A stretch of 64,000 nt of DNA from an uncultured Gammaproteobacteria bacterium (GCA_964431555.1 CAYSJW010000005.1:15215-79214), one strand, 5' to 3'. Counted from the first letter of the stretch, positions 11,305-42,311 are shown. The notes: a model not told the origin generated them from the sequence alone. Made by a program: numbers and translations.

Positions 11305-11362
11305 AACTGTCTCGCGACGTTCTGAACCCAGCTCACGTACCGCTTTAATGGGCGAACAGACC

Positions 11363-11393
<31 letters not shown>

Positions 11394-11968
11394 CGGTGAG
11401 CCGACATCGAGGTAGCGAACCGCACCGTCGATATGGACTCTCGGGTGCGACTACTCTGTTATCCCCGGGGTAGCTTTTATCCGTTAAGCTCCGCCCACAC
11501 CCATTGTGGATCGGAGGATCACTAAGACCTGCTTTCGCACCTCAAGGCACCATTCAGTGCCCTGCCAGATACCAAATGGCATCTGGGCTCCTGCCGTCAC
11601 AGTCGCAGTCAAGCTGGCTTATGCCTTTGTACATAAAGCACGATGTCCATCCGTGCTAAGCCAACCTTTGTACCCTTGCGTTACTCTTTGGCAAGGTACC
11701 GCCCCAGTAAAACTGCCCATCTAGCACTTTCCCCTGATTCGTTTGCAGAACCATAAGGTAAGTCTTGCCACGCTCCAAAGGGAGGTGTTTCACTTTCCCA
11801 GATACCATAGAGTACCTGGTCCCTCCTACTCTAAACAATTGGTTCGCACAAAACAATGCCAAACTGCAGTAAAGCTCCACGGGGTCTTTTTGTCCGGGTG
11901 GAAGTAGGCCGCGTCTTCACAGCCATCGCAATTTCGCCGAGTAGAGGCTCGAGACAGTTGCTAACTCG

Positions 11969-12002
<34 letters not shown>

Positions 12003-12933
12003 GAGGGACTTCGCTACCGTAGAACAGTTATAGTTACTGCTGCCGTTTACCGGAGCTTGAGTTCGGTGCACATAGCACACAACCATCAACTTCCACACCA
12101 GCCTTATTAGTCGTTAGCTGATTGTCGGTTGTTGAAAGTTGTGCGCTATGCACACCTCCCCTTAACTTACCGGCACTGGGCAGGCGTCAGCCCATATACC
12201 TTACCTTTCGGTTTTGCATGGACCTGTGTTTTTGTTAAACAGTCGGTTAGCAATCGTTAGCTGCGCCCTGAAGCCAGCTTGCGCATGCTTCAGGGAGGAC
12301 ATATCCCTAAGTTACGTCCAGCTTTTTTGCCGAGTTCCTTGAACCTCTTTCTCTCGCTCGCCTTAGTATTCTCTACCAGCCCACCTGTGTCGGTTTGTGG
12401 TACGGCTTGCTTTGAATCTCACTGCGAGCCTTTTTTGAAAGACTGAATAGGATGAAATTGCCCCGCTTTCGCAAGACTTTGCATAACTGCTTGATTAATC
12501 GTTTCAGCGGATTTCCCAACTGCCACTATCTCACAGCTTACACCGGACTTCACGTACCGGCTTCAACTATCCAACCTTGTCAGCCCCCAGCTAGTGTGCG
12601 TTGCACACTTGGGCGATTCAAAACAAATACAGGAATTTTAACCTGTCATCCATCAGCTACCCCCGCAATGCAGGGCTCACCTTAGGTGCCGACTAACCCG
12701 TCGCGGACGAACCTCCCGACGGAAACCTTGGGCATTCGGCGGAGGGGATTCTCACCCCTCTAGTTCGCTACTCATACCGGCATTCTCACTTCCAAACGCT
12801 CCACCACACCTTACGGTATGACTTCACCGCATTTGGAACGCTCCCCTACCGGGGATACCAAACGGTACCCCCCTCTGGCTTCGGTATCATTTTTAATCCT
12901 CGATAAATCTTCGGCGCCGTAAACCATCAACCA

Positions 12934-12992
<59 letters not shown>

Positions 12993-13505
12993 ATGATTTT
13001 CGACTTCCTTTCAAACTTAAAATGAATTTAGAGACCTTAGCCGAGAGTCTGGGTTGTTTCCCTCTCGTCTTATCAGCTTAGCCCGATAAGACTGTCTAGC
13101 AAGTTTTCGCACATCATTATTCGGAGTTTGGTTGGAATAACTCGGTTGCCCTCGCTATCCCATCCAGTAGCTCTACCACTAATGTACCTACCTTGCCACG
13201 GTGCCTATACACCTTTCGGGGAGAACCAGCTATCTCCAGGCTCGATTGGCATATTACCCCTATCCACAAGTCATCCGAGCTTATTGCAACAAACACCGGT
13301 TCGGGCCTCCCCCTAGATTTCTCTAGGGTTCACCCTGCTCATGGATAGATCGCTCTGGTTTCGGGTCTCGCCACACTTTCTAGGGCACTATTCGTACCCA
13401 TCCAAAATGGAATTCGCTTTCGCTACGCCTCCGTTCTTTAAAGAACTTAGACTTGTGAAAATGAGGCGAACTCGCCGGTTCATTCTTCAATAGGCACGCT
13501 ATCAC

Positions 13506-13640
13506 ACCTCGCTTCACTCGGTGTTCAAAAAATCAAAATGAAAAAGAATAAATATTAAAGAATTAATAAACTTTTATCTCTTAAATACTCATCTTACACT
13601 TTTCATTTTGAAGTATGAATTTGAGCGTCGAGTGAAACGA
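13506..13640 (-). other. AT-rich hairpin insertion (intervening-sequence-like expansion) inside the 23S rRNA 5' half.
   Basis: ~130 nt of ~20% GC inside otherwise ~50% GC rRNA, with an inverted repeat CAAAATGAAAAAG...CTTTTCATTTTG. It is flanked by conserved 23S sequence. Confidence 0.5.
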
Positions 13641-13709
13641 GATGCTCTAGCGGTTTGTCCGCAAACAGTTTCAGGTTCTATTTCACTGGGCGTCCCGCCC
13701 TTCTTTTCG

Positions 13710-13741
<32 letters not shown>

Positions 13742-14650
13742 TTTCAAGCATATTTAGCCTTGGAGGATGGTTCCCCCAGATTCCCACAGATTTTAGACCG
13801 TGGTACTTAGGATACTTCTAGAGGTTGGTTTAGTTTCACATACGAGGCTTTCACTCTCTATGGCCTTCTATTCCAAGACGTTCTGCTACCAAACCAACTC
13901 CCACAATGAAGTCCTGCAACCCTCTTTCGTTCCCGAAGAAACAAAAGAGTTTAGGCTATTGCCGTTTCGCTCTCCACTACTAAGGCAATCACTATTGTTT
14001 TCTTTTCCTCACCCTACTAAGATGTTTCAGTTCGGATGGTTCCCTCCTCGCACCTTATAGGTACTCACAACAATCAACAATCAACCAACAGATATTGTAA
14101 GTTCCGCGGAGCGGAACACGTCGACTGTTAACTGTAGAGAGTACCTCTTAGGGTACGGGTAGTCGCTTTTGAAAGCAACTGGGTTTCCCCATTCGGACAC
14201 CGCCGGATCACTGGATCGTGGCTCCTACCCGGCGATTATCGGAAGCCTTGCCCGTCCTTCTTCGGTGCTTGAAACCAAGGCATCCACTGTCTGCGTTAGT
14301 AAAAGACTTTTACGACCTTGTCCGTAATAGCTTGTACAAAGTACACGCATACGGACCTACTTCCCCAAATTAAAAGATCAATATTGGGGATATCTTTCCT
14401 CTTTAGTTGTTAAGGAGCAAATCAATTTTAGATATAAGATCTAAGATACAGGATACAAGATTTAAGATTTCAGTTCAAAAAATCTTACTTCCTACTTCCT
14501 TCATCTTACATCCTAATTCCAACAACTAACCACTCACAACCCACAACTCACCACTTATTTCCCACTACCCATATATTCTTGATTCTTGGTAAACGGAGAC
14601 TCGTGATCAAAAAGCCAAATCACCAATCTCCGATTAGCAAAAATCAAATG

Positions 14651-14724
14651 TGGACCCGGAGGGAATCGAACCCTCTACCTCCTCATTGCAAATGAGGTGT
14701 TCAAACCTTGTAAACTTCGGGCCC
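14651..14724 (-). tRNA. tRNA-Ala (anticodon UGC).
   Basis: Reverse complement GGGCCCGAAGTTTACAAGGTTTGAACACCTCATTTGCAATGAGGAGGTAGAGGGTTCGATTCCCTCCGGGTCCA. The anticodon loop is TTTGCAA, with G3:U70 and an A discriminator. It lies upstream of 23S as expected for a spacer tRNA. Confidence 0.88.
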
Positions 14725-14954
14725 TAACCCCCACGGATCTTTTAATTTTTTTAATCTGCAAAACAAAAAAACCCGCTCATTAAGGCGGGTTGACTAAACA
14801 AAAGGAAACCTCTTTCACCCACAAAAGGGGGTATTAAGATTGGTTTCTTTGTGAATTTTCATTATTTTCATCAAGCAACTCGCCTTAAGGCAAGGACAAT
14901 TATATTACACTCTGTCAAGACAAGTCAACCACAATTTTTTTCAAAATATCTCCC

Positions 14955-16012: not shown

Positions 16013-16181
16013 GAAAATATACTAAACTGTTTACTACAAATAAAATTTTACATTTATTTTTTTCCAAAAACAACCCACCACCCACTACTCACAACCCACA
16101 ACTCACTACCCACCACTCACAACCCACAACTCATATCTCACCCCCCCTTCTTTTACTCTGACTTAAATGTATAATTAGATT

Positions 16182-16880
16182 ATGGAAAAACTAACCACAC
16201 TTGCCCTCAAGCTTCCCAGAAACACTCAGGTTACGCCGGAAGCGGCAAAAACCTTCCTTTCTGCACTCATCCAAATTAACTTTATCTCTACCTTTAAAAA
16301 ACTTTTCGGCACTAAAAGAAAACCTTTAGCTTTAGAGATTGCTCTTATTAATCAACAAATCTACTTTTTGATAACTACGGATAACGAACTTATTCCCTTT
16401 ATAGAAACACAGATTACCTCAAATTACCCCTTGGCGATAATCGAAAAGACAAAAGACCCTCTTGAAGTAATTTCTTACAATTTAGTCAACATTTTCCTTC
16501 AAAAAGGAAACTATTATCCAATTGCCACATTTGAAAATTTTCAAGAGGTTGACCTACTCTCTTCAATACTTTCTGTTCTTGCGAAATCCGATCCAGACGA
16601 AGTCACAGTCATTCAATATGCACTTGAATCAACAAATAATTCTTGGCAAACAAAAGGAGCGGGCTTTGCAAAAAAAGGAACAAAAAACCCCGATGGTACT
16701 TATTCCCCAAGATTTGATTTAAATATCATAAACGAAAAAATTTCTTACCCAGGTTTCAGATGTAGCATCCGAATTATTAGTAATGCAAATAAAACCCTAA
16801 ATGAATTGTCAAGTGCCTTTGGTGTCTTTAATAGATCCGACGGAAATTACTTTATTTCTCAAAGACCTAATTTTTTTTAA
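16182..16880 (+). CDS. Hypothetical protein.
   Basis: A 232-aa ORF with ordinary composition for this genome; no recognisable motifs. Confidence 0.45.
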   Translation: MEKLTTLALKLPRNTQVTPEAAKTFLSALIQINFISTFKKLFGTKRKPLALEIALINQQIYFLITTDNELIPFIETQITSNYPLAIIEKTKDPLEVISYNLVNIFLQKGNYYPIATFENFQEVDLLSSILSVLAKSDPDEVTVIQYALESTNNSWQTKGAGFAKKGTKNPDGTYSPRFDLNIINEKISYPGFRCSIRIISNANKTLNELSSAFGVFNRSDGNYFISQRPNFF

Positions 16881-17027
16881 TAATAGGAGTATAAAAACTA
16901 AACCAACCGGAAAGTAAAATATACTCAGAACCTTCATCTATTACCAGCTTTTATCAGAGGTAATAATATAACACAAGGCAACTTCATCCCAAAAGGAAAA
17001 TGTTAACAAATTTTACCTTCTTATCCT

Positions 17028-18317
17028 TTATTTCCCACCCCTACCTTTTCCTCGCTCGGAACGAGGGGGATGGTTTCCTGGAGTCTGTCCACGCTCATCG
17101 TTCGAGGGGTTTCTATTATTACTATTTCCTGGATCGCACCCTTCAGGACCATTACCAATACCTTGATTACATTTTCGCTTATTTTCCCCAGGAGTTTCCG
17201 GTGTTGGCTCTAATGTTGGCTCCGGTGTTGGCTTAGGAGTAGACTCGGTAGTTGGAATGCCCTGTTGCGGACCATATTCCTCGCCTCTAGGGACCTCTCG
17301 CACAACACCACCTACAGGGACAAATCTCCCACCATCAACACCACAAGGACTCCCATTTGAATCCCCACTATCTTGATCTCCAATAACTTTTTCTAGCCCT
17401 CGGTTATAAAGGTCTGGAGTATTGGCAAGAGAGAAGACCTCAACCCTTAGACCTTGACCGTCAGTAACCGCCGCTAATAAAACGGGGTTTCCGGAATCTT
17501 TTCCACGAAAAATTTCTTCTTCCCTTCCGTTACCCGGTTTTTCCACACCTCCTCGAAAACTAACTCTTGCCACATTCTCAAGCTGAGGACCAAAAAGAGG
17601 ATAGCCCAGATATGTTTCATTGGTATCAAAGTCAGGACCAATAGTCCACCATTTCCCATCAACATTCTGGGGTTGAATAGCAAGATCGTCATAGGCTATC
17701 CTTTCAAATAATCTCCTTCTTTCTTCCTGAACAGCAGGATGAAAAGGATCTTTACCTTGTAAACTCAAGAAACCATCAACATAAGCAAGAAGCGCTTTAT
17801 CAATCTCTTTTGCTTCTACAATTGCCCAGCCTCTACTGTAACCGTCATTACCTTTTCTTAGCAAGTCACCTCTACCTAGCAAATCCGAAGTTCTCAAATT
17901 CGCCAAATCGTTAGGAGTAAAGCCAAGACCCTGCCCATCATTTTTAAGATCAAAATCCAAACCTCTTTCCCACAAAGCGCCCTTAACTCCCTTAGGACCT
18001 CCAACAGGAGCGGTTAATTGGTGAAACATTCTATCATGCATATTAATCCTAGCATCCACGGCTTCCCTCAGAGGATTCTCTCGGAGTTCCCCATTAAGAT
18101 CTTCTAGTCTTCCCCTAAGATATTTTCCAAACGTTTCAGGAGTTACAATATTTATACCACCATTTTCTACTGCTGCAAAATTAACACCCGCTGGATGGCT
18201 TGAAATCGGATATTCGCGAGACGCTTCTGGACCTTCAACGAATAGAGCACCACCAGCCACAGCTGCTAGTCTTAAAAAATCTCTTCGTGATAATCGTGGT
18301 AATCTGTCGACTGCCAT
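17028..18317 (-). CDS. Tat-signal (twin-arginine) exported hypothetical protein with a Pro/Thr-rich C-terminus, compositionally atypical (~48-50% GC).
   Basis: N-terminus MAVDRLPRLSRRDFLRLAAVAGGALF (S-R-R-x-F-L motif plus h-region). The C-terminal tail is TPKPTPEPTLEPTPETPG-rich. Local GC is clearly higher than the flanking ~33%. Confidence 0.6.
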   Translation of the reverse strand: MAVDRLPRLSRRDFLRLAAVAGGALFVEGPEASREYPISSHPAGVNFAAVENGGINIVTPETFGKYLRGRLEDLNGELRENPLREAVDARINMHDRMFHQLTAPVGGPKGVKGALWERGLDFDLKNDGQGLGFTPNDLANLRTSDLLGRGDLLRKGNDGYSRGWAIVEAKEIDKALLAYVDGFLSLQGKDPFHPAVQEERRRLFERIAYDDLAIQPQNVDGKWWTIGPDFDTNETYLGYPLFGPQLENVARVSFRGGVEKPGNGREEEIFRGKDSGNPVLLAAVTDGQGLRVEVFSLANTPDLYNRGLEKVIGDQDSGDSNGSPCGVDGGRFVPVGGVVREVPRGEEYGPQQGIPTTESTPKPTPEPTLEPTPETPGENKRKCNQGIGNGPEGCDPGNSNNRNPSNDERGQTPGNHPPRSERGKGRGGK

Positions 18318-18567
18318 ACCTTCCTTTTAATTGTCTTTACTATACCAAAAAGGAGGCTTCTTGTCAACTACAGGATGTTTTTTACTCAAAACAAGTATAA
18401 CTCACAACATGATATCTCTTAGGCATTTGCACAAGAGGTAGTACAAACTGCTCTTACCTCCTTGTCTTGCTGTTAAATCTTTACCCACCCTCCCCCAAGC
18501 TGTTTTTTATTTTCTTCCGAGAGGCTAGGCTATTTTCAGGCAAAAGTGTTATCATAAATAAAGCCCA

Positions 18568-19332
18568 ATGAATAACCACAAAAAGTTATTTATCTACACA
18601 ATTCTAATAACTACAGCCTTCTTTCTAACTCGACTAATAAATCTGACCTTACAACCTATTTTTTGCGATGAAGCTATTTACATAAACTGGGCCCAAAAAA
18701 CAGAGAACAATTTTAAGCTAAACGCTTTTTTGCCTTTAACAGATGGTAAAACTCCACTTTTTATGTGGGCAACTTCATTAAGCCTTAAAATTTTCAAAGA
18801 TCCTCTTTTTGCTGGAAGAATAGTCTCAGTTCTTGCCGGTTTTTCTTCTCTCATCGCCGCTTTTTTTCTCGGAAAAGAAATTTTCAAAACAAAAACAGGA
18901 ATTATCTCTGCTATTCTGCTAACTTTTCTGCCGTTTACTCTGTTTTTTGACAGAATGGCCCTAGTTGATTCAATGCTTGCCACTTTTTATCTTTGGTCCT
19001 TAGCGCTTGCCTTAAAAATATCTCAAAAGCCCAAGGTCAAAACAGCCGTTCTTTTAGGCTTAAGTTTGGGAGGAGGGATATTAACCAAAACCCCGGGAAT
19101 TTTTGCTTTTATCTCTTTACCCTTCATACTCATTGCAACCAACTTAAAAGATCTTAAAAAGGTAGCACTTAATCTTGGTCTTTCCGCTTTTATTGGTTTC
19201 TTTATTTTTAACCTGCTTAGAATTAGCCCCTATTTTGAAAACTTGTCAAAAAGAGACTCTGGGTATTACTTTCCCATAAGACATATCCTAGAAAACCCCA
19301 CAAATCCACTAACTGGAAATACAATAGGGTAA
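18568..19332 (+). pseudogene. N-terminal fragment of a GT-C fold (GT39/GT83, ArnT/PMT-like) membrane glycosyltransferase, truncated by IS insertion.
   Basis: Polytopic membrane N-terminus with FCDEAIYINWAQ (DE..Y loop motif of PMT/ArnT-type transferases). The ORF ends after 254 aa with a TAA lying inside the IS inverted repeat (GGGTAAAGT), whereas family members are ~450-550 aa. Confidence 0.5.
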
Positions 19333-20184
19333 AGTCTAATTATTCGGACCTTAAATGTTGATTTAATAACATAAATAAGCGTTTTTCTTGCTCTTTGAAA
19401 TTTTAATTTCTGTGATTGTATCGCCAGATGTATTCTCCAAGATATAAAGGCAGTCTTTGTTGACAAATTCCACCTCTAGCCGCTAGTTTCCTTTTCAAAT
19501 ATCCCCAAAATCCTTCAAGGCCATTGATGTGATTTCCTTTTTTATTAGAATACTCTTTTTTACTATGATCAACAAGTCGATGGACATAACCTTTGGATGC
19601 TAATCCAGTGTATCCTCGCCAAGTATCAGAACAGATGGTTGAACCTTTGCTAACTTGTTTTTCAATTAAGGGTTGTAAATCTCTGGCTTCTGTATCAGGA
19701 ACAATCTCAGCGAATATCTTTCCTTCCCGGCACAAAATACCAAAGACTGGTTGTTTAATAGTCCCAAAACCCCTGCGATTTTTACCATATTTTATGCAGT
19801 CTTTTTGCTTTCTATTCTTCATTTGACCACCCAAGTAAGTCTCATCTACTTCTACTATTCCCGAAAAGATGTCTGGCACATCTTTAGTCATTACTATTCT
19901 TAACAGAATTAATAATTTCAGAAGTTTGTATTTGGAAATGTTAACCCTTTCAAGGATAGTGTTGGTTGAATGTTCTAACACAAACTCAGAAATTACTTTT
20001 TTAACAACCCTTTTATTAAGTCTTAGAAGCTTCTTTTTCAGAGTAAATGACTTTCGACAAACTAAACAACGAAGACGTCCATCTTTTAATCTCCAGAACC
20101 TTTTGGTATTACTACATTGTAAACATTTCGTCATATTCCTAATGTGATTTTATCCCATTAGGTCTGAAATATTGAACTTTACCC
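19327..20184 (-). mobile_element. IS1595-family insertion sequence (~858 bp) with ~24-bp terminal inverted repeats.
   Basis: Left end GGGTAAAGTCTAATTATTCGGACC (19327..19350). The right end reverse complement is GGGTAAAGTTCAATATTTCAGACC (20161..20184). It encloses transposase ORF 19403..20134. Confidence 0.8.
19403..20134 (-). CDS. IS1595-family (ISXO2-like) DDE transposase.
   Basis: N-terminal zinc ribbon CLQCSNTKRFWRLKDGRLRCLVCRK and a C-terminal region ...HINGLEGFWGYLKRKL...YLGEYIWRYNHRN typical of DDE_Tnp_IS1595. Confidence 0.85.
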   Translation of the reverse strand: MTKCLQCSNTKRFWRLKDGRLRCLVCRKSFTLKKKLLRLNKRVVKKVISEFVLEHSTNTILERVNISKYKLLKLLILLRIVMTKDVPDIFSGIVEVDETYLGGQMKNRKQKDCIKYGKNRRGFGTIKQPVFGILCREGKIFAEIVPDTEARDLQPLIEKQVSKGSTICSDTWRGYTGLASKGYVHRLVDHSKKEYSNKKGNHINGLEGFWGYLKRKLAARGGICQQRLPLYLGEYIWRYNHRN

Positions 20185-20446
20185 TATATTATGAAAGCTT
20201 TCTAGTCAATGATAACTAAAATATTCAAAACATATCTTCAAAGCACCCCTTGTTAGAAGAGAAAAAAATTTCAAGCGGGATCGTGGGACAAAAAACCTCC
20301 TTGTAAAACTCTTGGTGGAGGGTACAGAGATGGTAAAAAATAGCAGTTAGCAATTAGCAGTTAGTTGTTAGTTGTTAGTAGTTAGTAGTTAGCAATTAGC
20401 AGTTGGCGGTTGGTAATTAGCAGTTGGTTTTTAGTAAAATGCAAAT

Positions 20447-20719
20447 ATGAGCGGTTTTGAGGATTTGAGGATTTATAGACTTTCTTTGGAGGGCTGCAAG
20501 ATAATTTACAAGATTATTTTAAAAGACCCTATTAAAAAAGATTACTCTTTAGTTGATCAAATAAAAAGGGCAGTTATGTCGATTGTCGCTAATATTGCTG
20601 AAGGTTATGGACGCTACACTAAAAAAGACCGCTCTCAGTTTTTAACATATTCAATTGGATCTTGTAATGAAGTACTAGCCTTTTTGGATATAATCAATAC
20701 TATTTGTAATATTGAATAA
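20447..20719 (+). CDS. Four-helix-bundle protein (TIGR02436, '23S rRNA intervening-sequence protein' family), short form.
   Basis: LRIYRLSLEGCKIIYKI...AVMSIVANIAEGYGRYTKKDRSQFLTYSIGSCNEVLAFLDI has the NIAEG signature. It is a paralog of the ORF inside the 16S IVS. It is flanked by inverted heptamer arrays at 20341..20427 and 20811..20880. Confidence 0.75.
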   Translation: MSGFEDLRIYRLSLEGCKIIYKIILKDPIKKDYSLVDQIKRAVMSIVANIAEGYGRYTKKDRSQFLTYSIGSCNEVLAFLDIINTICNIE

Positions 20720-21109
20720 TATTGATGTATCAAAAGAAAAGAAAGTTTTTCTTTCTCTAGGAAAACAAATCTATTCATTCCGTAAAGCCCTTCAGAATTC
20801 ATAGTATTAACTCACTGCTTACAACCAACTGCCTACTACCTACTACCAACTACTTTACTGCTATCTGCCCACTGCCTAACGTATTACCGTTTCTCTACCC
20901 TCTATCAAGGGAAAATTACGCCAAGGTATTGGCGAATCAATCCAACAAAGCCCTACGGCGGAGTTGGAAAATACCCGGAGCTGGCCGAACCAGTTTTAAA
21001 TCCTCTTTCTGTTTGCCAAGAGCTGGCACCAAGGTCGCTAAGCGATCGCGCAGCTCCCCACTAGTAAAGTGGCAATTGAAAGAAGAAAACCAAGCAATAG
21101 GAGGTTTGA

Positions 21110-21531
21110 TAATGAACACCAAACGGATGTTTTTACTGGGTATAGTTGCCCTGTTGGTGGTCGCATTCGCGACCGGTACGGCATTGTCAAGCGGAGCCGC
21201 CGACATTACCGTTGTTTATGAGGACGACTATATGGTCGTCTATCAAGACGGTGATTTCGGTAACCGTATTGCGCTGAATAAAGCGGGAGGCGTGGATGCC
21301 TACTGTCCGTGCGAGGACGTCTGTCCTTTAACCGCACAGGGTGCTCCGGCAACCGCAACGCAACCGCCGCAGACAACGGCAACCAGCCAACCCCCATATA
21401 ACGGGGTGTGGATTCATCACGAATCCCAGGGCGTTGGCGACCAAAGCTGGACGCGCTGCATGCCACCGAGTGCCTGGAATGGACACAGTCCCCACGAAGG
21501 GGACTGGCTCGGTGGAGGTTGCTACCGCTAA
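21110..21531 (+). CDS. Secreted Cys-rich hypothetical protein in a GC-rich islet.
   Basis: MNTKRMFLLGIVALLVVAFATGTALSSGAAD signal peptide, then PATATQPPQTTATSQPP and several Cys/Trp. The region 20880..22080 is ~52% GC, and the tracked ORF begins further upstream at 20929. Confidence 0.5.
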
Positions 21532-22185
21532 TCGTCATTCGGGGTAACCCCAACACTAAGTCAGTTGGAAACTGACGACAAGGGTTACCCCACCCCCTCT
21601 CCCTTGTACCAAGTTTTACTTGGTGAGAGGCTCATCGATCGATCGAAAGATGGGTAAAACAAGGAAAGCGGGGCTCGCGAAATGGTAATTTTGCCCTCAA
21701 GACGCTTGCGTCTTTCGTCTTACGCAGACGATTAATGAGTGGCGATTTAGCCAATTTGCGAGTATGCGGACTGTTTATGAGTTGTGTTTTGATTTTAGGA
21801 CGAAACGATAACCGTAAGGTTATCAAATCAAGTAGCCAAAAAGCTACAAATCCAAAAAATCAAATCCAACCCCCAAAATAGTCCCCCCGCAATAGTTAGT
21901 TTTCGACCAACAGTCGAACTGAAGAGATCTTGTCCGATAATTATCGGAATGCGATCGAAACTATTAAACAAATTAATTAGTGTGTCGTAACTGATCCCAG
22001 CACAGAACTTACTTGCTCCCGAGTACTACGTGCTCGCGTCACAAGAGCGTTTATGCGGGACAAGTGAGACCGAAAGGTTGAAACTAAAAAAATAGTTTAG
22101 TATTTAGTTATTAGTGGTTAGTATTTAGTTTAAATTACACCTTAACAATTTATTCATTGACCAAAAATCACGGAAGTGGTTTAAT

Positions 22186-22671
22186 GTGGATATGGGAAAA
22201 GGCAAAGTGTTGACCAAAAAAGATGCTGAATTTTTAAAACAGGAATTCAAAAGTGTCTTTGCAACCAAAGAAAACCTTAAGATTTTAAAAAAAGAAATCG
22301 CCAACAGGGTGACAAGGTCTGTTGTTCCTCAAGTTACAAGGTCAGTGGTTCCTGAAGTTACAAGATCTGTCGTCCCTGAAGTAGCTAAGGCTGTCGTTCC
22401 TGAAATAGCGAAGGCTGTTGTTCCTGAAGTAACTCAAGCAGTTATCCCTCAAATTAAATCCGTCGTAAAGCTTGTAATTTCTGGGGAGTTAACAGAACAA
22501 GAAGAAAAGTACGAAAAGAAACTTGAAGAATTTAAGAGCGAGTTCTTTGACAAGGTTGACCTGATTTTAAAAGAAATAACAACGGTACAGGAAGAAAGAC
22601 CTTTGATTGAAAGTCGACTTGAAGCCCTTGAAAAAATTCATCCGCAAGGTAAACACGTTCTTTCATCCTAA
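22186..22671 (+). CDS. Tandem-repeat / coiled-coil hypothetical protein.
   Basis: Seven tandem 27-bp (9-aa) repeats VTRSVVPQ/VTRSVVPE/VAKAVVPE..., followed by a charged predicted coiled-coil C-terminus. Confidence 0.55.
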   Translation: MDMGKGKVLTKKDAEFLKQEFKSVFATKENLKILKKEIANRVTRSVVPQVTRSVVPEVTRSVVPEVAKAVVPEIAKAVVPEVTQAVIPQIKSVVKLVISGELTEQEEKYEKKLEEFKSEFFDKVDLILKEITTVQEERPLIESRLEALEKIHPQGKHVLSS

Positions 22672-23028
22672 TCACCCTTTAAAACCAAATCCCGTGTGTT
22701 TTCCTACCCGCAATGCCTGAAGCATAGCCAATGAAAACTGTCTGTGCAGGATTTGAAAAACGATTTTAATGGACCTGCACTAATTATTCAACTTGCTACA
22801 AATAAAAAAATTATTTAAATTTGATTGAGTAGGTTTATAATTAAAACATAGCTACCCAAAAGCGTGGGGGTAACCAAAGGTAAAAAACATAACCTAAAAA
22901 ATTATGTTACCTCTAAAGCAAAGTCCTGTACCGAATGGTATGGGACACTCCGCCGTCCTTGGGTAAAATCAAGGAAAGCGGAGAAACCAAAGGTTGCCTC
23001 CACACTTTTGGGGATCCAAGATTAGGAT

Positions 23029-23679
23029 TTAGTTTTGCGAAGATAAAATTGACTCAATTTTATTTCTGTTTTTTTCATTATCATCAGCATTAACTACTAA
23101 AATTACTTTTTCTATTTTTGAATCAGGTCTATCTTTAAAATAGTCTTTGATACCTCCAATAATTGATAATAATCGCGGCCTAAAAGTTTCCGGAGTAATC
23201 TCTCCAAATAAAGGAACTGCCACCGTCTTCACTTCAGCAGTACTTTCAGCCACCTCCAAAGAATTTCCAACTGCCAACCTCACTGGATCTTGACTTTTAC
23301 TTTCTCCAGTATTTGATATATTTGTATGAATTATTTTCTTAACCGAAGATCCTTCTAATCCCACCCCAGTTGCCACCGAATATCCCGGAGGAATATGAAC
23401 TTCACCTTTTAAGCCTATTTCTCTTAAACTTCCTTTAAAATGACTTTCTGCCTCTTTCGCCTTTCTAAATGGATCATCCCCAAATTTGATAATCAGTAAT
23501 TCTCCTTCCAAAGAAGTACTAAAAAAACTCCCATCATACGGGCAAACTAAAGCATCAGCTGTAACTTCATCTATTCTTCCAAAACTAATACTAACCTTAT
23601 CCCTCCAAATAGGAGCCTCTAAACGAATTGAACCATCTCCCGTCTCTCCGTTTCCCATACTATATTCTCTCACATTCAC
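23029..23679 (-). CDS. Hypothetical protein.
   Basis: 216-aa ORF with coding-like composition and no secure family assignment. Confidence 0.4.
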   Translation of the reverse strand: MNVREYSMGNGETGDGSIRLEAPIWRDKVSISFGRIDEVTADALVCPYDGSFFSTSLEGELLIIKFGDDPFRKAKEAESHFKGSLREIGLKGEVHIPPGYSVATGVGLEGSSVKKIIHTNISNTGESKSQDPVRLAVGNSLEVAESTAEVKTVAVPLFGEITPETFRPRLLSIIGGIKDYFKDRPDSKIEKVILVVNADDNEKNRNKIESILSSQN

Positions 23680-24222
23680 CTAAATTCACAAAATCACCAA
23701 TTCCTCAACACCGGGAGTTGATCAGCTTCCAACAATGGGTCTTTTAGATAAAGTGAGTTGTTGGTTGTTAGTTGTTAGTTGTTAGTTGTTAGTGGTTAGT
23801 GGTTAGTTATTAGTTGTAAGAGGTATGGAATGAGGAGTGAGTGGTGGGTAGTGGGTAGTGGGTTGTGGGTTGTGAGTAGTGGGTGGTGAGTTGTGATAAA
23901 TAGATATAGGAAGTTAGAAGTTAGTAGTTAGTATCTGGGAGTTGAGGAAAATAAACCCAAAACACAAAATTCAAAATTGTAATAAAAATTTAAAAATTAT
24001 AATTATTAATATAAAGTAGAATCATTAACTATTAACCATAAATTAATAATAATTTACAGGTTTTGAAGTTTAGTATAAAGCTTTCAAGATTTAGCTTTTG
24101 AGACACAAATATTCTCCATAATAAAAGACCAACGCCATATAAAGATTCTGAATAGCAATTTTATTCACTACAAAGTATTTTGACTGGAAAAATAGTTCAA
24201 TACTATAATATCAAATTACAGC

Positions 24223-24792
24223 ATGAATCCGGAAAGAAAAAGGCAAACAACCTTAATTTCCACAGAGCTTGGGTTCACAGTATTATGGTTATATCTCGCA
24301 TGTTTAAGTGGTTGTGAGGAAAATCGACAACAACTCTCAACATTAACTCCTCCTCAACCACCAGGTGAATCATCCAAGGGTCGAGACCTTCTTCCAACTC
24401 TCCCATCAGTAAAGCCAGAAACAAGAATGGAAGAACTAGTCAACCAAATTGAGGAAGAAGGCTATAATTGTGAGCCGATTCCAAAAGGTAGTTGGCTAAC
24501 CCAAGAACTAAGAAAAAGAGGAGCTCCAGGGATCGATGAGGGACCATACAAAATTATCCGAAGAGGTGGTAAAGTAGAAACCTTTGAAACTTATGATCAG
24601 CTTCCTAACCTAGTTTATCCAGGTGAGCAATTTTGCATCAAAGAAAATGGCAGTTCCTCGATTATCCCCGGAAAAAATCATGGAGTTATTTTTGAATGGA
24701 ATAATATGCCTTTTGTAAGAACACAAAATAGGGCTTTCCAACAAAAAAGTCAAGAAATAACATCTAGGCTCCGCGCAAAACAAAGGTTCTAA
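24223..24792 (+). CDS. Putative lipoprotein.
   Basis: N-terminal h-region followed by the lipobox LACLSGC. 189 aa. Confidence 0.5.
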   Translation: MNPERKRQTTLISTELGFTVLWLYLACLSGCEENRQQLSTLTPPQPPGESSKGRDLLPTLPSVKPETRMEELVNQIEEEGYNCEPIPKGSWLTQELRKRGAPGIDEGPYKIIRRGGKVETFETYDQLPNLVYPGEQFCIKENGSSSIIPGKNHGVIFEWNNMPFVRTQNRAFQQKSQEITSRLRAKQRF

Positions 24793-25079
24793 AATCTCAA
24801 AAAATCCCCTAGTCAAATTTATATTTTGACATCCAAAATATGACTGGAAGCGGTCCCCGTTTTATCACAGTCAAAACGGCGAACTTAAAAACTGGGTGCT
24901 ATCACCCCTCTTTCGCAAAAAAGCAAAAAGAGGGTTCCCGTGAGAACTCCTTAGAAAGGAGGTGATCCATCCGCTCCTTCCAGAACGGATACCTTGTTAC
25001 GACTTAATCCTCATCGCTGGTTTCACCTTCCCCTCCGACTCGGAGGGTTCGGGTGCCCCCAACTTTGCTGACTTGACGG

Positions 25080-25951
25080 ATTGCACTTCATCGAAGTTAT
25101 CGTGCGTTCCCACTAAGCGAGCGGCTTTCCCGCACTTAGCGAGCCGTAATGCTTATTCATCTCCAGCTTCAATTTCCTAATAAAAGAGAGTTCTTTTTCA
25201 GAGAGCTTACGCACATCCTGCCTTCCCTTAACTATCTCGGCTATTTGGCAAAAAGCATTAAAACTTTCCGCTTTATAGCCCAAGAGTTTATGTCGTTTGA
25301 AAAAGGGTATTATGACATTGTAAATATCATCCCTTTTTGTAAATTCAAAGACCCAAGCAGGAAGACGACCCACGCGCCTAGCACTCTTTTGATAAACAGT
25401 CCCTACGTTGAAAAATTGCTGGACCTTTAAAAGCAATGGTTTATTTCCTTCAGCTTGAGTAATGAAAAATCGTAAATCGATTCTGTTATCAGCTCGAATA
25501 GATACAAGGAAACATCCCTCACCTTCTGTCAATCCAACAACATATGAAGCTGGAAGCATTACGTATTTCCCTTCGATAATGCCAGTATACGAATGTTTTC
25601 AATATACTGTCAATTATCTACTATGGAAATGCTGACTTCCTAAAAGGCAATTACTTCGTTCCTTTTAGGATCTCCGTGGGTCATCATATATTCTATTCCC
25701 GGCATGAACAAATTGCTTTTACAAACTGGCTTCCTTCTGACCGCCCAGCAGAAGTCGCCAAGCATTTTCATTTTGTCCCTGCCGTTTGCCTCAGGCCCTC
25801 CGTTCTATCGGTTACCCGTAAAAGCAAAGTTTATACTTTGCAATAGAACTGCCAATTTTTTGGCTACATTTCAAGTTGGTAAAGGTTAACCATCAAGAAA
25901 TGGTAAGATTTTAACTTACTAGAATATATGACTGCCACGCGCGCATTTATT
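25080..25951 (-). mobile_element. Group I intron in the 16S rRNA 3' domain, inserted after GTACACACCGCC, carrying a LAGLIDADG ORF.
   Basis: 16S collinearity stops after ...GGGTCTTGTACACACCGCC (plus 25952) and resumes at CGTCAAGTCAGCAAAGTTGGGGG (plus ~25079). The ~870-nt insert contains ORF 25113..25559. Confidence 0.85.
25113..25559 (-). CDS. LAGLIDADG-family homing endonuclease (intron-encoded, in 16S).
   Basis: MLPASYVVGLTEGEGCFLVSIRADN carries the LAGLIDADG-type motif VVGLTEGEGCF. 148 aa. Confidence 0.9.
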   Translation of the reverse strand: MLPASYVVGLTEGEGCFLVSIRADNRIDLRFFITQAEGNKPLLLKVQQFFNVGTVYQKSARRVGRLPAWVFEFTKRDDIYNVIIPFFKRHKLLGYKAESFNAFCQIAEIVKGRQDVRKLSEKELSFIRKLKLEMNKHYGSLSAGKPLA

Positions 25952-26414
25952 GGCGGTGTGTACAAGACCCGAGAACGTATTCACCGCGACTTTGCTGATT
26001 CGCGATTACTACCAATTCCGCGTTCATGAGGGCGAGTTGCAGCCCTCAATCCCCACTGAGAAGCCGTTTGATGGGATTAGCTCCGCGTTACCGCTTGGCA
26101 ACCCATTGTCGGCTCCATTGTAGCATGCGTGTAGCCCTGGACATAAGGGCCATGCTGACTTAACGTCATCCCCGCCTTCCTCCAAGTTTAACTTGGCAGT
26201 CCCGTATGAACAATCTAACATACGGCAGGGGTTTCGTTCGTTACCCCACTGAAGGGAACACCCCACGGCACGAACTTACGATAGCCATGCAACACCTGTC
26301 CTACCATCCAACTTTCGAAGGATCTGCTACTATTTCTAGTAACATAAACGGTAGGATGTCAAGTCCAGGTAAGGTTCTTCGGTCCGTCTCGAATTAAACC
26401 ACATGCTCCACTGG

Positions 26415-26446
<32 letters not shown>

Positions 26447-27359
26447 TAAACTTGCGTTCGTACTCCCCAGGCGGCTCGCTTAACGCGTTAGCTTGCGCCC
26501 CACGCCCAAAGGCGTAGGGCTAGCGAGCATAGTTTACGGCTAGGACTACAGGGGTCTCTAATCCCTTTCGCTCCCCTAGCTTTCGTTCCTCAGCGTCAAA
26601 CAGTTCATAGTTACCTGCCTTCGCCCTCGGTGTTCCTTGCGATATCAACGGATTTCACCCCTACACCGCAAGTTCCGGTAACCCCTAAATGTTTCGATTT
26701 CTTCAGTATTACCTCCCTTTCCGAGGTTAAGCCCCGGTCTTTGAAAGATAACTTAAAGAAACGCCTACGAACTCTTTACGCCCAATAAATCCGGACAACG
26801 CTTGCACCCTCTGTATTACCGCTGCTGCTGGCACAGAGTTAGCCGGTGCTTATTCTCCGTTCGGTCTCCCTCACGGCAAAAGTGGTTTACAACCCGAAGG
26901 CCTTCATCCCACACGCGGCGTCGCGGCGTCAGACTTTCGTCCATTGCGCACGATTCCCAGTTGCTGCCACCCGTAGGTGTATGGGCCGTGTCTCAGTCCC
27001 ATTCTGGGGGGTCACGCTCTCACGTCCCCTACCCGTCGTAGCCTTGGTAGGCCATTACCCTACCAACTAGCTGATAGGCCGCAGGCTCCTCCTTCGGCGG
27101 ACAGTTACATCCTTTGCTGCGTAGCAGCCAACCATCAACTAACAACAATCAACTCACAACTCTTATATTAGTTGTCTTTTAATTGTTGAAGCTCACAAGA
27201 TGAGCGTGTTGAAAGCTCGCTGCTGCGCAGCGTATGCGGTATTAGCCCCGCTTTCGCGGGGGTATTCCCCACCAAAGGGTAGATTCCTACGTGTTACTCA
27301 GCCGTTCGCGACTATCCGCAGGACAGAACATTCAACAATAAACAAGTAACTGGTTACAA

Positions 27360-27722
27360 CTAACTCTTCTTAAGATACTTCGAAAAACCTCCAAGTTGAT
27401 CAGCAATCTGCTTAGTTTCCTTTATCAACTCATTTTTTAAAGTAGAACTTATAAGTTTAGATTCAAATGCTATATCAATTCCAGCAGTAGTTTCATTTAT
27501 AGAACCTAATGAGTTGTTTAAATACATATTCAATTCTTTATCAGAGTCTTTGCCAGATCCTTCTGCGATATTAAGAACTACAGAGAGACTACTCCTTCTT
27601 ATCTGATCCGCTAATTCCCTATGTTCTCTCGGGAAAGTTTTACTTATCTCAACAACTGACAAATAAAATCTTTTTGCATCTTTATAAACTTTAAACCTCA
27701 TAAATCGAAATGTTTTATCCAT
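27360..27722 (-). CDS. Four-helix-bundle protein (TIGR02436, rRNA intervening-sequence protein) encoded inside an IVS in the 16S rRNA V1 region.
   Basis: MDKTFRFMRFKVYKDAKRFYLSVVEISKTFPREHRELADQIRRSSLSVVLNIAEGSGKDSDKE has the family-defining NIAEG motif. The ORF sits ~70 nt into the 16S, between inverted flanks GGTCCGCAGGAC / GTCCTGCGGA that form the IVS stem. Confidence 0.85.
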   Translation of the reverse strand: MDKTFRFMRFKVYKDAKRFYLSVVEISKTFPREHRELADQIRRSSLSVVLNIAEGSGKDSDKELNMYLNNSLGSINETTAGIDIAFESKLISSTLKNELIKETKQIADQLGGFSKYLKKS

Positions 27723-28157
27723 ATTCTTTGTTAATAATTAATAGTTACCAGTCGCAAGTTACAAGTTGATCTGTTCGGTCCTGCGGACCGTCCCACTTGC
27801 ATGCTTAAGGCACGCCGCTAGCGTTCGTCCTGGGCCAGGATCAAACCCTCAAATAAGTGACGAGTTTATACCCTAGTTGCGTATAAACAGCAACCAAAGT
27901 GTAGTTCGTCTATACGCCGGGTGTCAAATGACACCCGATCAGGTACCGAATGGCACCTGACTTCCAGTCATATTTTGAATGTCAAAGAGCAAAAATCAAA
28001 AAACCCACCAGATGGTGGGTTAATTTTAAGTTCCCGAATTAACGGAAAACCATCTGGCTCTTATTTCTTCATAAACTAAACTCAAATCAACTAAATGTAT
28101 TGAGCATATATAGTATATCAAAAAAATCAAACGAGTCAATTATAAATTTTTAGAATT

Positions 28158-41772: not shown

Positions 41773-42311
41773 ACCAATTTATTTCTTAAACACATACAAC
41801 TAACAACTATTTCCTACATCCTACATCTTACTTGCTACTTCCTAACCCCAACTTCCAATCACCTACAACTAACCCCCTACCACTCACAACTAACTTCTCA
41901 CAACCCACCACTCATTTCCCATTACCTACAACCAATATCCATAACCCACTACTTACATCATCAACTTATTTATATTTAAATTTTTTATCCACTTTGATGA
42001 TTCGAATCATAGATACAGACTATCCTCATACACTTCACTAACAACAACCTATTACCTACTTCTCACTGCTCACTACCATCTGCTAATAACTACCAACCAC
42101 CTACTTCCTACTTCCTATATTCTACATCCTACATCTTACTTGCTACTTCCTAACCCCAACTTCCAATCACCTACAACTAACCCCCTACCACTCACAACTA
42201 ACTTCTCACAACCCACCACTCACTACTCACTACCCACTACTCACTATCCACCACTCACTACCAACAACCAACTACTCACAACTCCCTACCCTCTCAAATA
42301 AATCAGGGATA
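41770..42311 (+). repeat. A 540-nt tract almost devoid of G on the plus strand, built from degenerate heptamer repeats (CYCACWA / CCACTAM). It contains a 100-bp perfect internal direct repeat.
   Basis: Only ~7 G in 540 nt. Heptamer periodicity is visible, e.g. CCACTCA CAACTAA CTTCTCA CAACCCA CCACTCA. 41814..41914 is identical to 42123..42223. A 14-bp perfect palindrome ATGATTCGAATCAT lies at 41997..42010, preceded by the DnaA-box-like TTATCCACT. Confidence 0.9.

What the first reader, a model, noticed from the sequence alone, without database searches (positions are those of the whole stretch)
20341..20880. IVS-like cassette outside rRNA: four-helix-bundle (NIAEG) gene bracketed by inverted heptamer-repeat arrays
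(TAGYWRT)x12 at 20341..20427 and its inverse (CTAMYAC-type)x10 at 20811..20880 flank ORF 20447..20719. That ORF is a paralog of the protein encoded inside the 16S intervening sequence (both carry NIAEG). rRNA intervening sequences are stem-loops with such ORFs in the loop. Finding the same architecture free-standing suggests these IVS units are, or derive from, autonomous mobile cassettes. The paired arrays would form a long RNase-III-like stem.
Basis: partly seen in the sequence, partly recalled or inferred. Interest (0 to 1): 0.75.

Follow-up and report, generated by a model that had tools for sequence, protein, structure and literature searches.

The report
Hairpin-bracketed IVS-protein gene cassette
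A small gene of the family normally known from the "intervening sequences" inside ribosomal RNA sits here outside any rRNA, enclosed in a long hairpin built from inverted 7-base repeats, and the same packaging surrounds about 60% of the genes of this family sampled from many bacterial phyla.

Summary
Window 20305-20911 is a compact, about 607-bp unit. It consists of a unique 28-bp outer stem, a 13-unit heptamer array, a PF05635/TIGR02436 ("23S rRNA IVS protein", four-helix-bundle) ORF, an inverse array of about 10 units, and the outer stem partner. The sense RNA folds at -184.8 kcal/mol (z -7.7). The ORF is a recent pseudogene, because a 10-bp tandem duplication truncates a 115-aa protein to 90 aa. 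The same unit occurs in related metagenomic contigs, with shorter arrays and the same outer stem including one compensatory pair. A distant paralog (30% identity) does sit inside a 16S IVS in this window. PF05635 genes outside rRNA are already well known. What I could not find in the papers searched is their packaging. In two independent samples, 61 of 99 such genes had flanking inverted repeats, against 8 of 369 neighbouring ORFs. The repeats mostly have period 7 or 8. The G-rich arm is almost always the 5' arm (62 cases against 1). My best reading is an IVS-type selfish cassette whose stem insulates or excises it at the RNA level. RNase III cleavage and mobility are inferred, not shown.

The parts
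20309..20336 (+). 5' arm of the unique outer stem (CTTGGTGGAGGGTACAGAGATGGTAA)
   Evidence: Inverted repeat I4, 26 nt, 81% Watson-Crick. It is fully paired in the + strand MFE structure. Four of the 5 non-Watson-Crick positions are G.U in the sense RNA. The core GAGGGTACAGAGAT is conserved in L003, L089 and L090. Pair 20332/20888 is G-C here and A-T in L003 and L090.
20341..20437 (+). 5' heptamer array, G/T-rich, 13 units (TAGCAGT, TAGTTGT, TAGTAGT, TGGCGGT and others)
   Evidence: TRF period 7, 12.1 copies. It is 63 nt (9 units) longer than in L003 and L090.
20438..20446 (+). Short leader (conserved ...TTTAGTAAAATGCAAAT before the ATG), with no Shine-Dalgarno sequence
   Evidence: Alignment A2. 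No sigma-70-type promoter was found in front of the ORF.
20447..20719 (+). PF05635/TIGR02436 four-helix-bundle ('23S rRNA IVS protein') ORF, truncated to 90 aa
   Evidence: Pfam 81.7 bits against a cutoff of 33.8, profile positions 1-82 of 106. TIGR02436 75.4 bits against 24. The exact 90-aa product is present in 4 independent contigs.
20707..20725 (+). 10-bp tandem duplication (TAATATTGAA x1.9) that frameshifts the ORF
   Evidence: TRF. Removing one copy restores a 115-aa ORF that ends at 20804 and aligns to the C-termini of the homologs (...LSLGKQIYSFRKALQNS).
20720..20804 (+). Out-of-frame remnant of helix 4 of the ORF
   Evidence: tblastx 20718-20792 matches L003 and L090 at 76%.
20809..20880 (+). 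3' heptamer array, C/A-rich, about 10 degenerate units, inverse of the 5' array
   Evidence: TRF 20820-20853. Inverted repeats I1-I3 and I5-I9. Paired with the 5' array in the MFE structure.
20884..20911 (+). 3' arm of the unique outer stem (TTACCGTTTCTCTACCCTCTATCAAG)
   Evidence: Homology with L003 and L090 ends here.
27325..27775 (-). Paralogous cassette acting as a true IVS in 16S rRNA (ORF 27360-27722, 120 aa)
   Evidence: Stem-loop fold z -3.8.

Best explanation
Window 20305-20911 is a decaying copy of a hairpin-enclosed PF05635 ('IVS protein', Avd-like four-helix-bundle) gene cassette. It is the same kind of unit that forms ORF-bearing intervening sequences when it lies in 16S or 23S rRNA, but here it sits in an ordinary intergenic position. 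Shown: the ORF is bracketed by two inverse arrays of a 7-nt repeat and by a unique outer inverted repeat. Together these give a stem of about 100 bp that closes off the whole gene. The unit, not its surroundings, is conserved in relatives. The protein was under strong purifying selection until a recent 10-bp duplication truncated it. Hairpin packaging with short tandem repeats and a G-rich 5' arm is typical of the whole gene family across phyla. Inferred: when the region is transcribed, from its own start or by read-through from either side, the arms pair into a long double-stranded RNA. That stem would be cut by RNase III, as demonstrated for the Coxiella and Leptospira IVSs. The cassette would then be excised or insulated from the host transcript, so that insertions into rRNA, rRNA spacers and operons are tolerated. 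Tandem repeats let the two distant arms pair in many registers and let the stem grow or shrink by slippage; here both arms have expanded. The 'G-rich arm first' arrangement would keep the C-rich arm from being exposed as a single-stranded Rho-loading site while the ORF is transcribed. The cassettes reached their many locations by insertion, but the mechanism is unknown. The protein's own role is not established.
For: Structure. The + strand folds at -184.8 kcal/mol (z -7.7) and the - strand at -155.3 (z -5.6).
Family membership: (closest solved structure XCC0516, 2GSC).
Frameshift.
Conservation of the unit: L003/L089 and L090 share 76-78% DNA identity only across 20305-20911. The outer stem is retained with one compensatory G-C to A-T change, although synonymous sites are saturated (dS about 2, dN/dS 0.05). 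L006 and the second L003 copy have the same layout with other sequences.
Family-wide pattern: a flanking inverted-repeat score of 30 or more was found in 40/63 PF05635 genes against 6/274 neighbouring ORFs (p 2e-22). This was replicated with 21/36 against 2/95. The arm period is 7 in 24+11 cases and 8 in 8+1 cases. The G-rich arm is 5' in 44+18 cases against 0+1. In 34 of 49 loci the only period-7 array within about 6 kb is the one at the PF05635 gene.
Insertion sites: 23S helix 45 (L097), 16S, between tRNA-Ile and tRNA-Ala (L101 and L098), plasmids and cas operons (PMC3936711).
Precedent: the Coxiella IVS has GACAGAT heptamers next to the S23p ORF, variable in number, with RNase III cutting at the first repeat, and its ORF is decaying (PMC4990558). 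Xcc0516 has a GGGAATC x4 array at its start (supplement of PMC4692102).
Against: There are no expression or cleavage data, and no RNase III gene was looked for. Across the family there is no excess of sense-strand G.U wobbles over antisense ones (139 against 186), so RNA-level and DNA-level selection on the stems cannot be separated. Only the window's own outer stem favours the sense RNA. No promoter-like site precedes the ORF and there is no Shine-Dalgarno sequence. No empty site, target duplication or second copy of this cassette was found, so mobility is indirect. About 38% of family members lack detectable flanking repeats. The Rho rationale for the arm order is untested. The two rRNA-embedded hairpins in this window have the opposite or neutral arm order, which fits the idea but is only n=2.
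Confidence: 0.6

Rival explanations
1. The inverted arms work as DNA, not RNA. They would be terminal repeats or hairpin/cruciform recombination sites used by a trans-acting transposase or recombinase. Alternatively they would be portable homology arms that let the gene recombine into ORF-less heptamer hairpins elsewhere.
For: Homology with relatives ends exactly at the outer repeat. ORF-less heptamer hairpins that could be landing pads or derivatives exist at window 14422-14559 and 59587-59829 and at L006 5490-5570. No strand bias of wobble pairs is seen family-wide. An array upstream of ORF 22186 nearly copies the L003-type 5' arm, which hints at array-mediated rearrangement.
Against: The neighbouring IS1595 has its own unrelated terminal repeats at 19319-19351 / 20160-20192. 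The outer repeat motif is unique in the 64 kb. No target-site duplication is visible. In the window's outer stem, 4 of 5 mismatches are G.U only in the sense RNA, and the sense RNA is about 30 kcal/mol more stable. The one experimentally studied relative is processed as RNA (PMC4990558).
Confidence: 0.22
2. The heptamer arrays are repeated binding sites for the PF05635 pentamer, or for another repeat-binding factor. They would regulate the gene's own transcription or translation, and the hairpin would be secondary.
For: Arrays lie within 0-100 nt of the start codon in most loci, including Xcc0516 and Coxiella. Arrays are mostly specific to the gene rather than to the host background. MacGregor proposed translational control for TAACTGA repeats placed just upstream of start codons (PMC4679880).
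Against: The unit sequence differs completely between lineages (GGGGACT, GGCAGTA, GAACGTT, GGTAGATT and others), while the protein's conserved surface motif (Q..R...S...NIAEG) is invariant. A binding-site model does not need the matching inverse array downstream or the unique outer stem. In this window similar arrays occur at many unrelated genes.
Confidence: 0.13
3. Chance juxtaposition: two ordinary intergenic heptamer arrays, in a genome full of them, happen to face each other around a small gene.
For: There are 24 period-7 arrays in 64 kb, most of them unpaired.
Against: The same bracket is conserved in L003, L090 and L006. A unique, non-repetitive outer stem carries a compensatory change. 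The family-wide enrichment is 62% against 2%.
Confidence: 0.03

Closest known systems
ORF-bearing rRNA intervening sequences (Coxiella burnetii and Leptospira 23S helix-45 IVS; 23S_rRNA_IVP-bearing insertions in CPR 16S/23S rRNA)
   Same: They share a PF05635/S23p ORF in the loop of a stem formed by terminal inverted repeats, and a size of about 430-760 nt. Tandem heptamers lie next to the ORF and vary in copy number (GACAGAT in Coxiella). The ORF tends to decay while the stem persists (PMC4990558, PMC11270868). A true example lies in the same window at 27325-27775.
   Different: The target is not inside an rRNA gene. It is on the strand opposite to the flanking rRNA genes. Its arrays are much longer (13 and about 10 units). 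Its G-rich arm is 5', whereas the two 16S-embedded hairpins of this window have the opposite order.
PF05635 / TIGR02436 'four helix bundle protein' genes scattered in genomes (Xcc0516, PDB 2GSC; copies in cas operons and on cyanobacterial and Riemerella plasmids)
   Same: The protein family and conserved motif are the same. The genes are small, accessory and sporadically distributed. The loci examined here also carry inverse arrays.
   Different: In the papers I could search these genes are treated as isolated hypothetical genes. The flanking hairpin and tandem-repeat packaging is not described there.
Avd, the accessory protein of diversity-generating retroelements
   Same: It is a homologous pentameric four-helix-bundle fold. 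The 16S copy weakly hits the Avd model (20.8 bits).
   Different: No reverse transcriptase gene was found among the called genes from 6 kb on one side to 14 kb on the other. The target does not hit the Avd equivalog model. TR/VR repeats were not looked for.
Heptameric simple-sequence repeats: cyanobacterial GGGGA(C/T)T, Xanthomonas GGGAATC (70-75 convergent pairs), Beggiatoaceae/Bacteroidetes TAACTGA
   Same: They are period-7 intergenic arrays, often just upstream of start codons, variable in length and sometimes in inverted pairs (PMC4692102, PMC4679880). The Nostocales cassettes here use exactly GGGGA(C/T)T.
   Different: Those papers do not link the arrays to PF05635 genes. In most loci sampled here the array is confined to the PF05635 gene.
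MITEs / REPINs
   Same: They are short units bounded by inverted repeats, able to form hairpins. ORF-less hairpin derivatives exist.
   Different: The cassette carries a conserved non-transposase ORF. The only resident transposase examined, the adjacent IS1595, has unrelated ends, and the element is single-copy in the window.

Membership tests
PF05635 / TIGR02436 (23S rRNA IVS protein, four-helix-bundle protein) | Profile score above the curated cutoff | tested here: met
   Pfam 81.7 bits against 33.8. TIGR02436 75.4 bits against 24.
PF05635 / TIGR02436 (23S rRNA IVS protein, four-helix-bundle protein) | Conserved Q..R...S...NIAEG and GS.NE motifs | tested here: met
   Invariant columns Q38, R41, S45, N49-E52, G71, S72, N74 and E75 in alignment A1.
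PF05635 / TIGR02436 (23S rRNA IVS protein, four-helix-bundle protein) | Complete four-helix length (about 105-125 aa) | tested here: not met
   The ORF as it stands is 90 aa and covers profile positions 1-82 of 106. Helix 4 is out of frame because of the 10-bp duplication. A 115-aa ORF is restored if one copy is removed.
PF05635 / TIGR02436 (23S rRNA IVS protein, four-helix-bundle protein) | Pentameric toroid as in XCC0516 and Avd | not testable with these tools
   Only sequence similarity to 2GSC is available (E 2e-8).
rRNA intervening sequence (IVS) | Located inside a helix of a 16S or 23S rRNA gene | tested here: not met
   Rfam places 23S at 11235-14310 and 16S at 25898-27399, extended to about 27850. 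There is nothing at 20305-20911. The paralog at 27325-27775 does meet this feature.
rRNA intervening sequence (IVS) | Terminal inverted repeats forming a long stem that encloses the element | tested here: met
rRNA intervening sequence (IVS) | S23p-family ORF in the loop (Leptospira/Coxiella type) | tested here: met
rRNA intervening sequence (IVS) | Excision from the precursor by RNase III | not testable with these tools
   The stem (28 bp outer stem plus paired arrays) meets the structural requirement for a double-stranded RNA substrate. This is an inference from established knowledge and PMC4990558.
Diversity-generating retroelement (Avd component) | Adjacent reverse transcriptase gene | tested here: not met
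   None of the called genes with a recorded Pfam hit is a reverse transcriptase, from 6 kb on one side to 14 kb on the other (L001); many of those genes have no recorded hit.
Diversity-generating retroelement (Avd component) | Match to the Avd equivalog model NF033474 | tested here: not met
   No hit for the target. The 16S copy scores 20.8 against a cutoff of 80.
Diversity-generating retroelement (Avd component) | Template/variable repeat pair | not tested
   No search was made for an A-mutated repeat pair.
MITE / IS-derived element | Ends matching those of a resident transposase-bearing IS | tested here: not met
   The IS1595 terminal repeats at 19319-19351 / 20160-20192 are unrelated to GAGGGTACAGAGATGGTAA.
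MITE / IS-derived element | Multiple dispersed copies | tested here: not met
   The outer repeat occurs only as the one pair in 64 kb. The rest of the genome was not available.
MITE / IS-derived element | Target-site duplication | tested here: inconclusive
   No direct repeat is visible at the junctions in the window, L003 or L090, but the exact ends are uncertain by a few bases.
Short tandem heptamer repeats (STRR-like SSRs) | Head-to-tail period-7 arrays in intergenic DNA | tested here: met

The most novel reading that the evidence does not exclude
PF05635 'IVS protein' genes would be a pan-bacterial class of self-insulating selfish cassettes, and rRNA intervening sequences would be the subset that landed in rRNA. 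Their arms are short tandem repeats of period 7-8, with the G-rich strand always running 5'-3' towards the gene from both sides. That is the arrangement expected if repeats were added to the two 3' ends of a broken target. This raises the possibility that the Avd-like protein, together with a polymerase or reverse transcriptase supplied in trans, builds the arrays. The enigmatic heptamer arrays of cyanobacteria, Xanthomonas and Beggiatoaceae could then be footprints or landing pads of such cassettes.
Probability: 0.2. Interest if true: 0.85.

Novelty: new variant of a known kind. Interest (0 to 1): 0.62.

Why it matters
What rRNA intervening sequences are, and whether they are mobile elements, has been an open question since about 1990 (Burgin 1990 and Ralph & McClelland 1993, as summarised in PMC4990558). 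This locus and its relatives show that the IVS unit (stem, heptamers and S23p ORF) exists as a discrete, conserved package outside rRNA. A quick survey also shows that this packaging is a property of the gene family across Cyanobacteria, Bacteroidota, Chloroflexota, Planctomycetota, Proteobacteria, Firmicutes and CPR bacteria, with a fixed arm order. This ties three separate literatures to one gene family: rRNA IVSs, Avd-like four-helix-bundle proteins, and unexplained heptamer repeats. It also gives concrete tests: RNase III cleavage of non-rRNA transcripts, Rho dependence of the arm order, and protein binding to the arrays. For annotation, it explains odd 'hypothetical' genes that interrupt operons. 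It also warns that Rfam can misplace the 5' end of a 16S gene when an IVS is present.

Tried and rejected
1. Strand test on the stems. I counted G.U-compatible mismatches in the sense and antisense directions across 76 loci. The counts were 139 against 186, and 29 loci against 29. There is no sense bias, so this test cannot show RNA-level selection.
2. Cassette as a derivative of the adjacent IS1595. Rejected, because the IS has its own 33-nt terminal repeats, unrelated to the cassette ends.
3. DGR component. Rejected, because there is no reverse transcriptase nearby and no Avd-model hit.
4. Flanking arrays as the host's general repeat background. This is true of this window and of Nostocales, but it is rejected as a general explanation. 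Only 15 of 49 loci have any other period-7 array within the fetched DNA, and only 3 share the unit.
5. Promoter and terminator scan of 20150-21150. Nothing above the shuffle expectation was found in front of the ORF.
6. Unalignable flanks as proof of mobility. Rejected as evidence for window against L003 or L090, because dS is about 2. Only the L003 against L090 comparison (dS 0.23) is informative.
CPR affiliation is only inferred from sample types and gene content.
8. The phage collection gave no match.
9. Ralph & McClelland 1993 (PMC47033) is not held, so its statements are cited second-hand.
10. Five literature searches for an earlier description of repeats flanking PF05635 genes found none. 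Absence from this library is not proof of novelty.

Full report
THE OBSERVATION

The sequence at 20341-20880 is as described. Tandem Repeats Finder gives a period-7 array at 20341-20425 (12.1 copies, 79% matches) and a second one at 20820-20853 (4.9 copies).

Read in register, the 5' array has 13 G/T-rich units of the AGTT[A/G]G[C/T] type. The stretch 20809-20880 holds about ten more degenerate C/A-rich units. These are the reverse complement of the same heptamer family.

Between the arrays lies ORF 20447-20719. It matches Pfam PF05635 (23S_rRNA_IVP) at 81.7 bits against a cutoff of 33.8, and TIGR02436 'four helix bundle protein'. The closest solved structure is XCC0516, PDB 2GSC.

The arms are complementary far beyond chance. 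RNA folding of 20331-20890 gives -148.6 kcal/mol against -116.5 +/- 4.7 for shuffles (z -6.8).

First, a unique, non-repetitive inverted repeat lies outside the arrays, at 20309-20336 / 20884-20911 (I4).
- With it, the sense RNA of 20300-20915 folds at -184.8 kcal/mol (z -7.7). The whole gene is closed off by a nearly continuous stem.
- The antisense RNA folds at -155.3 kcal/mol (z -5.6).
- In the outer stem, four of the five non-Watson-Crick positions are G.U only in the sense RNA.

Second, the ORF is broken.
- A perfect 10-bp tandem duplication (TAATATTGAA, 20707-20725) shifts the frame.
- Removing one copy restores a 115-aa protein. Its C-terminus (...LSLGKQIYSFRKALQNS) aligns with the 113-122-aa homologs.
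- The exact truncated product is present in four independent contigs. One Logan assembly is 100% identical over 2251 nt. The truncation is therefore not an assembly error.

THE 16S CLAIM

- Rfam starts the 16S at 27399, with a visibly poor alignment of model positions 1-90.
- The canonical 16S 5' end (GTTTGATCCTGGCCCAGGACGAACGCTAGCGGC) is at 27814-27846 on the minus strand.
- The stretch 27325-27775 is therefore an intervening sequence in the 5' domain. It folds as a stem-loop (z -3.8).
- It carries a 120-aa PF05635 ORF that is 30% identical to the target.
- A second, ORF-less insertion of 93 nt at about 27128-27220 is also a heptamer hairpin.

RELATIVES OF THE CASSETTE

Proteins 81-84% identical to the target occur in groundwater metagenome contigs (L003/L004/L005/L089 and L090).
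- DNA similarity to the window (76-78%) is confined to 20305-20911.
- The alignments show the same outer stem, the same heptamer family and the same short leader before the ATG. The arrays there have only 4-5 units.
- The window has 63 extra nucleotides in the 5' array and about 40 in the 3' arm.
- Pair 20332/20888 is G-C in the window and A-T in L003 and L090, which is a compensatory change.
- Between the window and these relatives, synonymous sites are saturated (dS about 2) while dN/dS is 0.05. The protein was therefore under strong purifying selection, the frameshift is recent, and the near-identity of the non-coding outer stem means that it too is under selection.
- More distant CPR-type copies (L006, and the second copy in L003) have the same layout with different sequences. 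L006 also shows an ORF-less heptamer hairpin.

IS THE CASSETTE MOBILE?

The evidence is indirect.
- With dS about 2, unalignable flanks between the window and its relatives mean little.
- The closer pair L003 and L090 (dS 0.23) is informative. They share the left neighbour (a small ORF ending in ...IHPQGRH) and the cassette. Homology stops exactly at the cassette's right end.
- In all three contexts the right neighbour is a different, GC-rich (48-54%) gene for a secreted protein.
- The outer-repeat motif is unique in the window and is unrelated to the terminal repeats of the adjacent IS1595.
- No target duplication and no empty site was found.
- On a longer time scale, insertion is not in doubt. 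Relatives sit in 23S helix 45 (Sporomusa, Pelotomaculum, Syntrophomonas and others; L097). They also sit in 16S (this window) and between tRNA-Ile and tRNA-Ala of rRNA spacers (L101 and L098). They occur on cyanobacterial and Riemerella plasmids and, according to PMC3936711, between cmr genes.

THE WIDER PATTERN

I scored the flanks of PF05635 genes in 80 loci from species-representative genomes, chosen only by a peptide pattern.
- A Watson-Crick inverted repeat of score 30 or more between the 200 nt upstream and the 200 nt downstream was present for 40 of 63 scorable genes. It was present for 6 of 274 neighbouring ORFs in the same loci (Mann-Whitney p 2e-22).
- An independent set from metagenome contigs gave 21 of 36 against 2 of 95.
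- The arms are usually short tandem repeats. The period is 7 in 35 cases and 8 in 9 cases.
- The unit sequence is lineage-specific: GGGGA(C/T)T in Nostocales, GGGTTGC and GGCAGTA in Bacteroidales, GAACGTT in a Collierbacteria genome, GGCAGAA in Planctomycetes, GGTAGATT in Chloroflexota and GGTTCAA in Riemerella.
- In 62 of the 68 repeat-positive cases the G-rich arm is the 5' arm. It is the C-rich arm in one.
- This arm order is a property of the hairpin itself. It is the same on both strands, so it says nothing about the orientation of the ORF.
- In 34 of 49 loci with a period-7 array at the gene, there is no other such array in the roughly 6 kb fetched. Only 3 loci share the unit elsewhere. 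In general, therefore, the arrays belong to the cassette rather than to a host-wide background. This window (24 arrays) and the Nostocales are exceptions.
- The two best-studied family members fit the pattern. The Coxiella IVS has two to three GACAGAT repeats (plus a degenerate one) before the S23p ORF, varying between strains, with the RNase III cut at the first repeat (PMC4990558). XCC0516 has a GGGAATC x4 array overlapping its annotated start (supplement of PMC4692102).

HOW IT MOST LIKELY WORKS

Shown: a gene-sized loop closed by a long, conserved stem that tolerates slippage, and a protein that was under selection but is now broken.

Inferred:
- On transcription the arms form a double-stranded RNA of about 100 bp. 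RNase III would cleave it, as it does in rRNA IVSs. This detaches the cassette from the host transcript and makes insertions harmless.
- Tandem repeats allow pairing in many registers and rapid length change.
- Having the G-rich arm first avoids leaving a long C-rich, G-poor single strand exposed to Rho while the ORF is transcribed. This is consistent with the opposite or neutral arm order of the two 16S-embedded hairpins here, since rRNA operons are protected from Rho. That is only two cases.
- A family-wide test for sense-strand wobble pairs was negative (139 against 186). A DNA-level role for the arms therefore remains a live rival.
- The function of the protein is unknown. Its kinship with Avd suggests nucleic-acid binding.

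COMPARISON WITH WHAT IS KNOWN

- The protein is a member of PF05635/TIGR02436, although it is truncated.
- The element has every structural feature of an ORF-bearing IVS except the defining one, location in an rRNA gene. It works like an IVS but is not one.
- It is not a DGR part, because there is no reverse transcriptase and no Avd-model hit.
- It is not an IS1595 derivative.
- PF05635 genes outside rRNA are commonplace.
- I could not find the conserved hairpin and tandem-repeat packaging, its arm order, or the link between heptamer repeats and this gene family in the searchable literature. The papers on heptamer repeats do not mention the gene family.

VERDICT

The locus itself is a decaying member of a known gene family. 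Its value is that it exposes a general and apparently undescribed packaging rule for that family. Interest 0.62; novelty: new variant of a known kind.

Noticed in passing
window 27325-27850 (minus strand): Rfam places the 16S 5' end at 27399, but the true 5' end is at about 27850. An IVS of about 450 nt with a 120-aa PF05635 ORF splits the 5' domain, and the first 90 or so model positions are misaligned onto IVS sequence.
   Followed up: yes
window 27128-27220: There is a second, ORF-less 93-nt insertion in the 16S gene (near model position 190). It is a hairpin made of heptamer-like repeats with the C-rich arm first in the rRNA sense. It looks like a cassette stem without a gene.
   Followed up: partly
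window 14422-14559 and 59587-59829; L006 5490-5570: These are ORF-less hairpins made of a G-type heptamer array followed by its inverse, with loops of 8-20 nt. They could be remnants of cassettes or landing pads for them. All three have the G-rich arm first.
   Followed up: partly
window, whole (e.g. 16066-16142, 23748-23946, 41792-42294, 60089-60265): There are 24 period-7 arrays in 64 kb. Most are unpaired, and most are G/T-rich on the strand that carries the local genes (C-type on the + strand where genes are on the - strand). Their role is unknown.
   Followed up: partly
window 19319-20192: An IS1595-family element (transposase 19403-20134, minus strand) has 33-nt terminal inverted repeats at 19319-19351 / 20160-20192. 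It abuts a truncated PMT_2 glycosyltransferase ORF (18568-19332), which it probably interrupted.
   Followed up: partly
window 17028-18317 and 20912-21600; L003 4710-5921; L090 1035-1551: There are GC-rich islands (45-54% against about 35% background) encoding secreted proteins with Tat or Sec signals. In all three contexts the gene to the right of the cassette is such a GC-rich secreted-protein gene, yet the three are not detectably homologous. This is unexplained. It could be a variable cargo site.
   Followed up: partly
window 21992-22671: ORF 22186-22671 has five 24-nt tandem repeats (VTRSVVPE) and ends in LEKIHPQGKH. It is homologous to the small ORF that is the left neighbour of the cassette in L003 and L090. 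Here it lies on the other side of the cassette and in the other orientation. It is preceded by an array (22094-22132) that is 86% identical to the L003-type 5' arm, which suggests an array-mediated rearrangement.
   Followed up: partly
window 25113-25559 (minus) and about 10580-11035 (minus): Two LAGLIDADG homing-endonuclease ORFs lie just downstream of the 16S 3' end and between the 23S and 5S genes. They are outside the Rfam rRNA boundaries. I did not examine whether they mark introns near the rRNA 3' ends or are free-standing.
   Followed up: no
window 16013-25897: The 16S gene is separated from tRNA-Ile and the 23S gene by about 10 kb. This stretch contains protein genes on both strands, an IS and the cassette, so the rRNA genes are probably not one transcription unit.
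   Followed up: no
window 14650-14740: ARAGORN calls a 91-nt 'tRNA-Pro(agg)', while Rfam matches a 74-nt tRNA at 14651-14724 in the position where tRNA-Ala is expected. The identity and 3' end of this tRNA are unclear.
   Followed up: no
L003 310-3117: In L003 a second PF05635 cassette (2758-3117, minus strand) lies next to a VirD4/TraG-like coupling protein gene (310-2547). This suggests that the region belongs to a conjugative or integrative element.
   Followed up: no
Xanthomonas campestris XCC0516 (supplement of PMC4692102): The gene of the crystallised family member XCC0516 has a GGGAATC x4 array overlapping its annotated start. The authors list it among G-quadruplex repeats without noting the gene family.
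   Followed up: partly
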